From NCBI RefSeq assembly GCF_003790525.1, contig NZ_CP033635.1: a stretch of 64,000 nt of DNA. One strand, written 5' to 3'. Made by a program: the position numbers. This document shows, piece by piece, positions 15,001 through 18,000 of the stretch. This DNA is from Escherichia coli (GTDB lineage: Bacteria > Pseudomonadota > Gammaproteobacteria > Enterobacterales > Enterobacteriaceae). Within the stretch, counting starts at the first letter, position 1. Each line of letters begins with the position of its first letter.

Positions 15001-18000
15001 TAAGGTGCCATCAGCATCGAAACGTTCCGGATTATTCAGAAAACGGAACTCCACGCCGTCGTGCAACGCTTCTTCATACTCTTCGCGCCATGCTGGCATC
15101 TCTTGCAGTGAACGACGGTAAACGACCGTTGCTTTTTCTACGCCTGGAACGCGTAACGCCGCACGAGCGCAGTCCATTGCGGTGTTACCCGCCCCGACAA
15201 CGACCACATGTTTGCCCAGCTTGAGCGCGGTGCCCTTGTTGTATTCACGCAGGAAGGGGAGTGATTTCCAGACATTTTGGTTGTCGCCCGCCAGTTTCAC
15301 ACCGCTATTTTTATCGGTACCGGTGGCAATCAGAACATAGTGGAAGCCCTGATTTTTTAACTGTTCGACGGTCAGATCCGGTGAGCAGCCATACTCAAAT
15401 TTCACGCCGTGAGCGGCAACAAAATCGATATCGTGCTGAATTAACTCTGCAGGAATACGGAACTGAGGAATGATATTTTTCACCACGCCGCCCGCATTGG
15501 CTTCGCGTTCAAACAGCGTAACCGGATGGCCCGCTCTGGCAAGGAAGTAACCTGCTGCCAGACCCGCCGGACCTGCACCAATCACGGCAACCGGATGGCG
15601 TGAACCAGAACCGGCTGGTTTGTGCCAGCGTTGCTTATATTCATCCCAACCTTTTTCCAGCGCGACTTTTTTCAGTTCGCGGATATTCAGCGCACTGTCG
15701 TAATCCAGGCGAGTACAGTTGTATTGGCACTGGTGATCGCAAATATGACCGGTAATGGCGGGCAGGGCGTTTCGTTGATAGATGAGTTCCAGCGCGTCGG
15801 CATAGCGGTGTTCGCCAAGCAGACGGATGTATTCCGGAATATCTTGCTTGATAGCGCAGGCAGTAACACAGGGGGCAACGTAGCAATCGGTCAGCGGCAG
15901 GTCTTCAGCCACTTCAATACGCTCTTCTGGCTTCCAGTGTTTCTGGGTGTATTCCATGGTTAACGCATCTGCTGCCAGTCTGTTCAGTCGTTCGACGTCA
16001 ACATGGTCAAGTCCCCAGGCGTTGGAGCCTTCCAGCTCGCGCATGCAGGCACTTAAGCGCAGATAGCCGCCAGGTTTCAGCAGGTCGGTTGCCATAGTAA
16101 TAGGGCGAATACCAGTATCAAAAATATCGCGGATAGTCAGCTGACTGGCACCACCGGAATAAGAAATGGGCAGTTTGCCGTCAAAGGCGCGAGAGAGAAC
16201 TGCTGCAACGTTGATGGAGAGCGGGAACAGCGCACGGCCTGACATATACATCTCTTCACCAGGCAGTGCGCCTTTATTGTTGATGGTGCCGAGAGTGTTA
16301 GTCAGTTTTACGCCAAAGCCGAGTGATTTTTCTTTTGCCAGTGCCATCAGGCGTTCCAGCATTTCCAGCGCTTGCGTCAGCTTGAGGTCGTGATCAAATG
16401 ACTCTTCTTTTAAGCCTATGTAACCGAAACCGCAGACATCAAGGATCTCACGAACACGCGCGTACCCCAGTAAGGTCGGGTTGAGTTTCACAAAGGTATT
16501 GAGCCCTTTTTCTTCCAGCATGTAGCGGCAAATGGCTTCGATTTCATGCGGAGGACAGCCGTGCATGGTGGAGAGGGTAACACCTTGTACCATGCTGGTG
16601 GGGATGCGAGCGGGTAAGGCTTGCAAGCTTTCGCGTTTTTCCTGTAAGCCGTGGCGGGCTAAAAATGCCTCATCCTGGAGTAGCTTATTAAGTGCATCGC
16701 GGTATTGAGCGAATTTCGGATGGTCAGATGCGTCCATCATATTGTCGATGAACTGCTGCATCGGCGGTTGCTTAATACCTTCGAGGTTGTAACCGACGCT
16801 CATATTAAAGATGAACGATTTACCGGAATCAGAAGGCTGGAACATCGCTTCGAGAAGGTGCAGGGCAAACCAGGCTTTGAGGTATTCATCCCAGGCTTTA
16901 AGCAGGGTAAATTCGGTAGACCATTCGGTGTTAAAGCACTCGTCTTCGGCATCGATACAGGGCTTTTCCAGCTCCAGGCGGTCAAGAATTTGGACGGTTT
17001 TTAGTTCGATGAAGCGTCCGCCAGTCAGCCAGGAAGTGACAATATTTTGCGCGAGCTGCGTGTGCGGGCCAGCGGCAGGGCCGACGGGAGTGGCACAGGT
17101 TTCACCGAAGACGCTAACAGTTTTACCTTTTACAGGTGAGTAAAACTGTTGCTCGGGAATACCAAAGATTGAGCGTTGTTGTTGGTATTCATCAAATATG
17201 CGCGTCAAAAGTTCCTCAAACGGAATGGGACGCATAATATCCCCCATAACCCTCTCCTTAGCTTATACAGATATCATTGAGTGACCGGTGTTGAGAAATC
17301 CGGTGGTTTAGGGGGATAGAGCAACAATCGCACCACTCTTGCCAGGTTTGGCGGGAAATATAAAAAAATGTGAGGCGGCTCGAAACTTAATGGCTTTTTG
17401 TGAATGAACTCACAGGTGCCAAATGAGAATTAAAATCACTCCTGAAAATTATTATTGCCAGCACATTTATCACTTTTTCTCTTTTCTCAAAATCAGTGAT
17501 TCCTTATCATTATGATAAAGAGTGCAGGAGGGATTAAATATTTGAACGCAATCGTTTAACTACGTTTTCTAAATTTCAGTATACCTTTTCTTCGCTGTAA
17601 TAAAGTCGTCAGGAGTATCAATATCTAAAATTATTTCTGCATTTTCTATTTCGACGGAATAATGTTCTCCCATAAGGAGTGCCTGACGCATATTGGTGAC
17701 ATTGGGTCGCTGGATTGCCTGCATCAGGCATGGTTTTGACACTAAAATCGGATGGCCGGGGATGCCATTATGGAGTGGCAGTATTGCGCCATCATTTCGT
17801 AACGACCAGATTTTTCTAAAAATATCGATGGTGAGGGTTGGCATATCTCCGTGGGTGAGAAAACAATGTTCTGTTTGCACCGCGGGTACTGCGGCCTTTA
17901 CTGATGTCAGTAAACCCTGCGCATAATCTGGGTTGTGGATAATAGTGATATTGCTCTGGTTCGCATAACGTTCGTGCAGTTCATTACCACGATAGCCGGT

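What the first reader, a model, noticed from the sequence alone, without database searches (positions are those of the whole stretch)
17329..17345. Candidate sigma-54 promoter upstream of the ygfK-ssnA-ygfM-xdhD operon
CTGGCAAGAGTGGTGCG on the ygfK strand has correct GG-N10-GC spacing about 70-80 nt upstream of the ygfK start. Together with the xdhA candidate, this would place both molybdo-hydroxylase operons of the cluster under sigma-54 and plausibly YgeV control.
Basis: inference. Interest (0 to 1): 0.5.

Follow-up and report, generated by a model that had tools for sequence, protein, structure and literature searches.

The report
Known sigma-54 promoter of ygfK, mis-registered

Summary
The window is E. 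coli DNA. The 17-mer CTGGCAAGAGTGGTGCG is exactly at 17329-17345 (minus strand), 82 nt upstream of the ygfK ATG. On its own it is no better than chance: TGGCA-N7-TGC occurs 3 times in the window against 3.2 expected.

A sigma-54 promoter does exist here, and it is published. Bonocora et al. 2015 list a sigma-54 ChIP-seq peak (site OS31, FAT 26) with motif GTGGTGCGATTGTTGCT, which is window 17320-17336, 9 bp downstream.

A position weight matrix (PWM) cannot separate the two registers (12.05 vs 11.86 bits). Conservation can: in 79 ygfK loci from other species, the published register keeps GG and GC in 79/79. The ChIP peak offset also favours the published register.

Co-regulation with xdhA and ygeW, the "YgeV iModulon", is also published.

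Possibly new: a palindrome T[AC]TCA-N3-TGA[TG]A lies at fixed distances upstream of the ygfK, ygeW, xdhA, uacT and ygfT sigma-54 sites. It is a candidate YgeV enhancer. Position-locked CRP-like sites lie between it and the promoter.

The parts
17320..17336 (-). Sigma-54 promoter of ygfK in the published, conserved register: GTGGTGCGATTGTTGCT. The -24 GG is at 17334/17333 and the -12 GC at 17322/17321.
   Evidence: Identical to Bonocora site OS31 (ChIP-seq FAT 26). PWM 12.05 bits. It is the best sigma-54 hit upstream of ygfK in 79 of 80 species loci, with GG and GC in 79/79.
17329..17345 (-). Its 3' half is the true -24 element.
   Evidence: PWM 11.86 bits. A usable match occurs only in L002-L005 (Escherichia plus one Citrobacter sp.). 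The median PWM score over 79 loci is -14.7. The ChIP peak offset would be +27 bp, beyond all 41 other sites.
17309..17309 (-). Predicted transcription start, 19 bp downstream of the motif centre and 62 nt before the ATG. Inferred, not mapped.
   Evidence: Rule and distance are from Bonocora Table 1. The ChIP peak centre corresponds to window position ~17310.
17505..17517 (.). Palindrome P1, TATCAtaaTGATA: a candidate upstream activator site for the enhancer-binding protein YgeV. It lies 165 bp upstream of the sigma-54 motif.
   Evidence: Conserved at 0.8-0.99 column identity over 78 species. A PWM trained only on ygfK sites finds its best other matches in the ygeV-ygeW and ygfT-uacT intergenic regions, and a weaker one (rank 9) upstream of xdhA. 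Across species it sits upstream of the sigma-54 sites of ygeW (36/43), uacT (13/14), yqeB (9/9) and ygfS (3/4).
17481..17498 (-). Conserved block P2 (CACTGATTTTGAGAAAAG, core TTTTGAGAA). Function unassigned.
   Evidence: Column identity 0.8-0.9 over 78 species. No second good match in the window.
17420..17442 (-). Conserved block A (GGAGTGATTTTAATTCTCATTTG). Function unassigned. It could be a further activator half-site or an architectural-protein site.
   Evidence: Column identity 0.8-0.9 over 78 species. Unique in the window: 31.2 bits against 13.0 for the next hit.
17399..17414 (.). CRP-like site 1, TGTGAgttcatTCACA, a perfect core. It is centred 70 bp upstream of the sigma-54 motif start, about -97 from the predicted start.
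   Evidence: The only TGTGA-N6-TCACA in the window, against 0.08 expected. At the same distance (70-71 bp) the core is 10/10 in 26 of 78 species and at least 9/10 in 36.
17369..17384 (-). CRP-like site 2, TTCGAgccgccTCACA (8/10 core; conserved blocks C and D). It lies 30 bp downstream of site 1.
   Evidence: The CTCACA block is the most conserved upstream element, above 0.9. A core of at least 8/10 centred 40-41 bp from the motif occurs in 41 of 78 loci.
17284..17304 (-). Small conserved leader hairpin, aCCGG-N11-CCGGt, at about +6 to +26 of the predicted transcript.
   Evidence: 95% of cells are paired in 35 enterobacterial sequences. The outer pair is GC 20 / GU 6 / AU 5 and the next pair UG 17 / CG 14 / UA 4. 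It appears in the minimum-free-energy fold, but the leader as a whole is not unusually stable.
9121..17247 (-). The ygfK-ssnA-ygfM-xdhD operon served by the promoter. Gaps between genes are 2 bp, 50 bp and a 4-bp overlap.
   Evidence: RefSeq annotation of the 100%-identical strain WB61, mapped onto the window.
27342..29120 (+). ygeV, the only enhancer-binding protein gene in the cluster and the presumed activator.
   Evidence: Pfam finds PAS, Sigma54_activat (E 2e-70) and HTH_8, with no receiver domain. Annotation.
26957..26973 (-). ygeW sigma-54 site CTGGCACACTTATTGTT, with a P1-type palindrome 197 bp upstream at 27171-27189.
   Evidence: Bonocora site OS30. PWM 15.7 bits. P1 score 19.3.
32878..32894 (-). 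xdhA sigma-54 site CTGGCGTAAATCTTGCC. Two P1-type palindromes lie 21 bp apart at 32989-33007 and 33010-33028; the farther one is 115 bp upstream.
   Evidence: Bonocora site OS29, marked as confirmed in EcoCyc. PWM 12.4 bits. P1 scores 10.2 and 13.0.
2132..2150 (.). P1-type palindrome in the ygfT-uacT intergenic region. It lies 162 bp from the ygfT sigma-54-like site (2313-2329, +) and 106 bp from the uacT one (2009-2025, -).
   Evidence: P1 score 18.1. Sigma-54-like sites. ygfT is Bonocora site OS32.

Best explanation
The mocA-ygfK intergenic region carries the sigma-54 promoter of the ygfK-ssnA-ygfM-xdhD operon, part of the anaerobic uric acid (2,8-dioxopurine) degradation pathway. The promoter is GTGGTGCGATTGTTGCT at 17320-17336 on the minus strand, with -24 GG at 17334/17333 and -12 GC at 17322/17321. 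The predicted start is near 17309, giving a 62-nt leader.

What is shown: RNA polymerase with sigma-54 occupies this site in vivo (published ChIP-seq), and the site is conserved.

What is inferred: like every sigma-54 closed complex, it needs an ATP-hydrolysing enhancer-binding protein. The likely one is the cluster-encoded PAS/AAA+/HTH_8 protein YgeV. I propose that YgeV binds the palindrome T[AC]TCA-N3-TGA[TG]A, 165 bp upstream at 17505-17517. The same palindrome sits at fixed, roughly helically phased distances upstream of the ygeW, xdhA, uacT and ygfT sigma-54 sites. Two position-locked CRP-like sites (17399-17414 and 17369-17384) lie between the palindrome and the promoter. They probably bend the DNA and impose catabolite control.

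For: - Published occupancy. [quoted passage not shown]
- Conservation. The homologous motif is the best sigma-54 PWM hit within 450 bp of ygfK in 79 of 80 species loci, from Escherichia to Aeromonas, Photobacterium and beta-proteobacterial MAGs. Scores are 9.6-19.2 bits, and GG and GC are present in 79/79.
- ChIP peak offset. The other 41 sites average +5.2 bp with sd 5.7 and a maximum of +22.
- Activator. YgeV has PAS, Sigma54_activat and HTH_8 domains. ygfK-ssnA-ygfM-xdhD belong to the YgeV iModulon. A ygeV mutant has reduced ygfT expression, as cited. ygfK is strongly induced by uric acid.
- Enhancer. A P1 PWM trained only on ygfK orthologues hits upstream of the sigma-54 sites of ygeW (36/43), uacT (13/14), yqeB (9/9) and ygfS (3/4). 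The background is 0.147 sites per kb. Spacings are quantised at 144-145 or 165-166 bp (ygfK), 197-199 bp (ygeW) and 113-115 bp (uacT).
- CRP. The perfect TGTGA-N6-TCACA core is unique in the window against 0.08 expected and is position-locked in 36 of 78 species. A Crp site in the ygeV-ygeW spacer and glucose repression of the cluster are mentioned in 10.1101/2025.05.19.654654.
- Deep conservation of the regulatory logic. The same gene set is under a sigma-54 enhancer-binding protein (DioR) in Clostridiales.
Against: - In E. coli the motif is only a moderate match: 12 bits against a training median of 17, with T and G instead of C and A at motif positions 5-6.
- I found no mapped 5' end, no rpoN or ygeV reporter data for ygfK itself, and no YgeV or CRP binding data for this region.
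- The in vitro gSELEX survey of RpoN holoenzyme lists ygeV/ygeW but not ygfK.
- The P1-YgeV link rests on co-occurrence only.
- ybiY, an iModulon member outside the cluster, has neither a sigma-54 site nor P1 upstream.
- The +18 bp ChIP offset is itself an outlier (z 2.2).
Confidence: 0.8

Rival explanations
1. The reader's register (CTGGCA-N5-GTGCG, 17329-17345) is the functional sigma-54 promoter in E. coli, or both overlapping registers are used.
For: - Its PWM score is essentially equal to the published register, 11.86 vs 12.05 bits.
- Its -24 half, TGGCA, is closer to consensus than TGGTG.
- MEME picked one motif per ChIP peak, so the published choice was itself computational.
Against: - It is absent outside Escherichia and one Citrobacter sp.: GG in 5/79 loci and a median PWM score of -14.7.
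- Three of the four Escherichia-like genomes carry a substitution in the 9 reader-specific bases, and none in the 17 published bases.
- The ChIP peak offset would be +27 bp, outside the range of all 41 other sites.
- The upstream conserved blocks keep the same spacing to the published register in Escherichia as in other genera, 165-166 bp.
Confidence: 0.07
2. Sigma-54 binding here is non-productive, and ygfK is really transcribed by sigma-70 polymerase from a CRP-dependent promoter that uses the perfect CRP site.
For: - A perfect CRP core lies at 17399-17414.
- A TATATT hexamer lies at 17362-17357 (read).
- Bonocora et al. stress that binding sites are not necessarily promoters.
- The cluster is reported to be glucose-repressed.
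Against: - The consensus scan finds no sigma-70 promoter on the ygfK strand.
- The stretch between block D and the sigma-54 motif, which holds TATATT, is poorly conserved at 0.3-0.5.
- The CRP centre would be about 56 bp from such a start, which is not a standard class I or class II position. This is my own arithmetic.
- The sigma-54 motif and its phased palindrome are conserved in 79 species.
- ygfK co-varies with the other sigma-54 operons of the cluster.
Confidence: 0.07
3. The promoter is sigma-54-dependent, but the activator is not YgeV. The P1 palindrome is then bound by another protein, for example a repressor or a nucleoid-associated protein.
For: - No direct YgeV-DNA data exist in what I could read.
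- The ygfK copy of P1 shares the 9-mer TAATGATAA with the Fur-box consensus (from memory, not tested).
- E. coli has about a dozen other enhancer-binding proteins (from memory).
Against: - ygeV is the only enhancer-binding protein gene in the cluster.
- P1 occurs specifically upstream of the cluster's sigma-54 sites at fixed spacings in many genera.
- The variable central N3 and the TCTCA variants do not fit a Fur box.
- A ygeV mutant has reduced ygfT expression, as cited.
Confidence: 0.12

Closest known systems
E. coli K-12 sigma-54 binding site OS31 upstream of ygfK (Bonocora et al. 2015, PLoS Genet, PMC4591121); predicted ygfK promoter in EcoCyc
   Same: It is the same locus, with the identical 17-mer GTGGTGCGATTGTTGCT at window 17320-17336, the same strand, and 62 nt to ygfK.
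Sister sigma-54 promoters of the same cluster: xdhA (OS29), ygeW (OS30) and ygfT (OS32); the 'YgeV iModulon' (Lamoureux et al. 2023, PMC10602906)
   Same: All are sigma-54 sites bound in ChIP-seq, and their genes are co-expressed. All carry the T[AC]TCA-N3-TGA[TG]A palindrome 106-197 bp upstream.
   Different: The ygfK -24 element is TGGTGC rather than TGGCAC. The spacing to the palindrome differs per promoter. ygfK has two CRP-like sites, ygeW has one, and xdhA has only a weak one.
DioR regulon of Clostridiales (Nie et al. 2019, PMC6615313)
   Same: A sigma-54 enhancer-binding protein is predicted to control ygeW-ygfK-ssnA-ygeY, yqeB and pbuX, the same pathway genes.
   Different: It belongs to a different phylum. 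I could not read its enhancer motif, which is shown only in a figure, so orthology of DioR with YgeV and similarity of their sites are untested.
prpBCDE promoter of E. coli and Salmonella: sigma-54 plus PrpR, with CRP-dependent catabolite control (Lee, Newman and Keasling 2005, recalled from memory, not read here)
   Same: It is a sigma-54 catabolic promoter with a divergent or cluster-encoded activator and positive input from CRP.
   Different: The prp promoter uses IHF for looping. At ygfK I found no clear IHF consensus, and two CRP-like sites occupy the loop region instead. CRP binding at ygfK is untested.

Membership tests
Sigma-54 (RpoN) -24/-12 promoter, published register 17320-17336 | GG at -24 and GC at -12 with 10 intervening bases, and an overall match within the range of validated sites | tested here: met
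   GTGGTGCGATTGTTGCT scores 12.05 bits. The 38 training sites range from 8.4 to 20.6 bits with a median of 17.
Sigma-54 (RpoN) -24/-12 promoter, published register 17320-17336 | Conservation of the motif at the orthologous position | tested here: met
   It is the best hit in 79 of 80 loci, with GG and GC in 79/79.
Sigma-54 (RpoN) -24/-12 promoter, published register 17320-17336 | Occupancy by sigma-54 holoenzyme in vivo | not testable with these tools
   Taken from the literature: ChIP-seq peak OS31, FAT 26 (PMC4591121). The in vitro gSELEX list does not include it.
Sigma-54 (RpoN) -24/-12 promoter, published register 17320-17336 | RpoN-dependent transcription starting about 12 nt downstream of the GC | not testable with these tools
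   I found no mapped 5' end. The only indirect support is that ygfK responded to sigma-54 levels in a microarray study, as cited.
Sigma-54 (RpoN) -24/-12 promoter, published register 17320-17336 | A cognate enhancer-binding protein and an upstream activator site | tested here: inconclusive
   YgeV has the required domains. A shared, phased palindrome is a strong candidate for the activator site, but binding has not been shown.
   11.86 bits. The core pattern occurs at chance frequency, 3 found against 3.18 expected.
   GG is present in 5/79 loci, the PWM reaches 8 bits in 3/79, and the median score is -14.7.
   The offset is +27 bp (z 3.8), larger than for any of the 41 other intergenic sites.
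[quoted passage not shown] | TGTGA-N6-TCACA core | tested here: met
   17399-17414 matches 10/10 and is unique in the window against 0.08 expected. It is position-locked in 36 of 78 species at 9/10 or better.
[quoted passage not shown] | CRP binding and cAMP-dependent regulation | not testable with these tools
   The only support is a statement that the cluster is glucose-repressed and that the ygeV-ygeW spacer has a Crp site.

The most novel reading that the evidence does not exclude
The five sigma-54 promoters of the enterobacterial uric acid cluster (ygfK, ygeW, xdhA, ygfT and uacT, plus yqeB in some genera) share one enhancer. It is the palindrome T[AC]TCA-N3-TGA[TG]A, bound by YgeV at helically phased distances of 106-199 bp. 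At ygfK, position-locked CRP sites rather than IHF occupy the loop. This would make the operon a two-input gate: a purine or urate signal through YgeV, and cAMP through CRP acting as an architectural co-activator of a sigma-54 promoter. I found no description of a YgeV binding site in the papers I could search.
Probability: 0.5. Interest if true: 0.45.

Novelty: already known. Interest (0 to 1): 0.2.

Why it matters
The operon encodes YgfK (NADPH:2,8-dioxopurine oxidoreductase), SsnA and XdhD. These are steps of the recently solved anaerobic uric acid pathway of gut bacteria, which is relevant to gout and to engineered probiotics. The promoter itself adds nothing new. The candidate YgeV enhancer and the CRP sites, if confirmed, would explain how the whole cluster is switched on together. 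They would also give defined targets for de-repressing it in therapeutic strains.

Tried and rejected
- Simple consensus counts for either register are at chance level, so they were dropped as evidence.
- The PWM score alone ties the two registers and cannot decide between them.
- The sigma-70 promoter and terminator scan of 17200-17650 found nothing on the ygfK strand. The only promoter-like hit is on the opposite strand.
- My first repeat finder failed because I gave a minus-strand region. I replaced it with the cross-species alignment.
- A literature search for 'b2878' returned nothing useful.
- The Reitzer and Schneider review (PMC99035) is not held.
- The main text of Zhao et al. 2010 does not name ygfK. 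I therefore could not see which register EcoCyc or the earlier predictions used.
- The RpoN gSELEX paper lists ygeV/ygeW but not ygfK.
- The IsrR paper on YgeV has no data on cluster promoters.
- An Rfam scan of 17150-17650 found no family, so a xanthine-type riboswitch in the leader is not supported.
- The leader is not unusually stable, with z +1.0.
- ybiY, an iModulon member outside the cluster, has no sigma-54 site or P1 upstream.
- The P1-like hit at 61985-62003 lies inside yqeH in an AT-rich island and is probably chance.
- I looked by eye for an IHF consensus (WATCAANNNNTTR, from memory) between P1 and the promoter. The best candidate has two mismatches, so I did not pursue it.
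Full report
**Identity of the locus.** The 551 bases around the finding are 100% identical to E. 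coli strain WB61 and are present in 5,171 of 5,426 complete E. coli genomes. They span the end of mocA and the start of ygfK. In the window, ygfK is 14149-17247 on the minus strand. It is followed by ssnA (2-bp gap), ygfM (50-bp gap) and xdhD (4-bp overlap). mocA ends at 17569, so the intergenic region is 17248-17568. Recent work identifies YgfK as an NADPH:2,8-dioxopurine oxidoreductase of the anaerobic uric acid pathway (10.1101/2025.04.24.650524). ygfK is strongly induced by uric acid in MG1655 (10.1101/2022.07.24.501321).

**The observation.** GG and GC are 10 bases apart, and the motif ends 82 nt before the ATG. As a pattern it is unremarkable. TGGCA-N7-TGC occurs 3 times in the window against 3.18 +/- 1.97 in shuffles. 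I built a position weight matrix (PWM) from 38 intergenic sigma-54 sites of Bonocora et al., leaving out the cluster's own sites. An overlapping motif 9 bp downstream, GTGGTGCGATTGTTGCT at 17320-17336, scores 12.05 bits and ranks 7. Sequence alone therefore gives two tied, mutually exclusive candidates.

**What is already published.** Bonocora et al. 2015 (PMC4591121) mapped sigma-54 by ChIP-seq in MG1655.
- Table 1 lists site OS31: FAT 26, motif GTGGTGCGATTGTTGCT, predicted start 62 nt upstream of ygfK, flagged 'P' for predicted in EcoCyc.
- The same table lists xdhA (OS29, confirmed in EcoCyc), ygeW (OS30) and ygfT (OS32).
- The text adds that ygfK was one of five genes from an earlier sigma-54 microarray study for which a correctly oriented peak was found.
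- In Clostridiales the same genes are predicted to be under a sigma-54 activator, DioR (PMC6615313; PMC11448449).

So a sigma-54 promoter for ygfK and its grouping with xdhA under YgeV are both known.

**Which register is real.** I fetched 80 ygfK loci from one-genome-per-species contigs. They cover Escherichia, Citrobacter, Klebsiella, Edwardsiella, Morganella, Serratia, Aeromonas, Photobacterium and beta-proteobacterial MAGs.
- In 79 of them, the best sigma-54 PWM hit within 450 bp upstream of ygfK is the homologue of the published register. Its consensus is CTGG[TC][GC][CT]GAT[TA]GTTGCT, scoring 9.6-19.2 bits and starting 74-146 nt before the ATG in all but one locus.
- GG and GC are present in 79/79.
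- A usable match exists only in three Escherichia genomes and one Citrobacter sp. Three of these four already carry a substitution in the nine reader-specific bases, and none in the 17 published bases.
- The ChIP data agree. For the 41 other intergenic sites, the peak centre lies +5.2 +/- 5.7 bp downstream of the motif centre, with a maximum of +22.

I conclude that the functional promoter is 17320-17336.

**Upstream architecture (beyond the finding).** Anchoring the 78 usable loci on the sigma-54 motif reveals six conserved blocks in the 200 bp upstream.
- P1, a palindrome TTATCAtaaTGATAA (core 17505-17517).
- P2, TGATTTTGAGAA.
- Block A, GTGATTTTAATTCTCATT.
- Block B, TGTGAgttcatTCACA.
- Blocks C and D, TTcGA-N6-TCACA.

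A PWM for P1 trained only on ygfK orthologues was scanned over the 64-kb window. After the training site itself, the best hits are 27171-27189 (19.3 bits; ygeV-ygeW spacer, 197 bp upstream of the ygeW sigma-54 site) and 2132-2150 (18.1 bits; ygfT-uacT spacer). A weaker hit, 33010-33028 (13.0 bits, rank 9), lies 115 bp upstream of the xdhA site, with a second copy 21 bp away.

Across the other species, P1 hits lie 30-350 bp upstream of the sigma-54 sites of ygeW (36/43), uacT (13/14), yqeB (9/9) and ygfS (3/4). The overall density is 0.147 per kb, so under 5% would be expected by chance. Spacings are quantised at 144-145 or 165-166 bp for ygfK, 197-199 bp for ygeW and 113-115 bp for uacT. Divided by 10.5, these give similar fractional turns of about 0.76-0.86. 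That is my own arithmetic. The consensus in all five promoter classes is T[AC]TCA-N3-TGA[TG]A. YgeV is the only enhancer-binding protein encoded in the cluster, with PAS, Sigma54_activat and HTH_8 domains. P1 is therefore the obvious candidate for its binding site. This is an inference from co-occurrence. I found no published YgeV site in the papers I could search.

**CRP-like sites.** Block B is a perfect TGTGA-N6-TCACA core, the only one in the window against 0.08 expected. It is centred 70 bp upstream of the motif start, roughly -97 from the predicted start.
- At 70-71 bp the core is 10/10 in 26 species and at least 9/10 in 36 of 78.
- A second, weaker site (at least 8/10) is centred at 40-41 bp in 41 of 78.
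- ygeW has TGTGAtcaaccCCACA 50 bp upstream of its motif.
- A 2025 preprint mentions a native Crp site in the ygeV-ygeW spacer and glucose repression of the pathway.

I propose that CRP supplies catabolite control and DNA bending between the enhancer and the promoter. This is untested.

**Leader.** A 5-bp stem, aCCGG-N11-CCGGt (17304-17300 with 17288-17284), lies at about +6 to +26 of the predicted transcript. It is paired in 95% of cells in 35 enterobacterial sequences. Pair types are GC 20 / GU 6 / AU 5 and UG 17 / CG 14 / UA 4. The frequent T-G combinations fit an RNA stem on the sense strand better than a DNA palindrome. The leader as a whole is not unusually stable, with z +1.0, and no Rfam family matches.

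**Mechanism, with status of each step.**
- Shown (published ChIP-seq plus conservation here): sigma-54 holoenzyme binds 17320-17336.
- Established property of sigma-54: the closed complex needs an AAA+ activator.
- Inferred: the activator is YgeV, bound at P1. CRP assists. The signal is uric acid or a derivative. The start is near 17309.

**Rivals.**
- Sigma-54 binding is non-productive and a CRP/sigma-70 promoter drives ygfK: confidence 0.07. No sigma-70 consensus lies on this strand, and the TATATT region is not conserved.
- The activator is a different protein from YgeV: confidence 0.12.

**Verdict.** Interest in the finding itself is low. The shared palindrome and the position-locked CRP sites are the only potentially new results and need experiments.

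Noticed in passing
window 17505-17517; 27171-27189; 2132-2150; 32989-33007 and 33010-33028: A palindrome T[AC]TCA-N3-TGA[TG]A recurs at fixed distances (106-197 bp) upstream of the sigma-54 sites of ygfK, ygeW, uacT/ygfT and xdhA, and in many other genera. It is a candidate YgeV enhancer, and I found no published description of one.
   Followed up: yes
window 17399-17414 and 17369-17384; ygeW equivalent 27016-27031: CRP-like sites, one with a perfect core, are locked at 70 and 40 bp upstream of the ygfK sigma-54 motif in about half of 78 species. ygeW has one at 50 bp.
   Followed up: partly
window 17284-17304 (minus strand): A small conserved hairpin, aCCGG-N11-CCGGt, sits at the 5' end of the predicted ygfK leader. 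Its GC/GU/AU variation is consistent with an RNA stem.
   Followed up: partly
window 17481-17498 and 17420-17442 (minus strand): Two further strongly conserved upstream blocks, TGATTTTGAGAA and GTGATTTTAATTCTCATT, have no assigned binding protein. ATGAGAATTA, the reverse of part of block A, also occurs in the ygeV-ygeW spacer, within the P1-type site there (27171-27189).
   Followed up: partly
window 13392-13408 (-), 9541-9557 (-), 14847-14863 (+): Three intragenic sigma-54-like motifs score higher than the ygfK promoter: 15.4 bits in ssnA, 15.2 bits in xdhD about 590 bp upstream of xanQ, and 13.4 bits antisense in ygfK. None is in Bonocora's high-stringency tables.
   Followed up: no
window 2009-2025 (-): The E. 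coli uacT sigma-54-like motif, CTGGCACTCCACGAGCA, scores only 7.5 bits. Other genera have a conserved TTGGCACAGCTTACGCA (12-13 bits) upstream of uacT, so the E. coli copy may be degenerate.
   Followed up: partly
window 18893-18911 (inside yqeC, about 160 bp upstream of yqeB) and 18652-18668 (+): A P1-like palindrome (14.7 bits) lies inside the 3' end of yqeC, downstream of Bonocora's intragenic sigma-54 site IS34. In nine other species, yqeB has its own sigma-54 site with P1 38-160 bp upstream.
   Followed up: partly
window 27342-29120 (+), ygeV: YgeV has PAS, AAA+ and HTH_8 domains but no receiver domain, although the IsrR paper calls it an orphan response regulator.
   Followed up: partly
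window 61985-62003: A P1-like hit (16.7 bits) lies inside yqeH in the AT-rich ETT2 island and is probably chance. The ygfK P1 copy also shares the 9-mer TAATGATAA with the Fur-box consensus (recalled from memory).
   Followed up: partly
L083 (K-12 857000-867000), ybiY upstream: ybiY is listed in the YgeV iModulon but has no sigma-54 motif or P1 palindrome in its upstream spacer. Its co-expression is probably indirect.
   Followed up: yes
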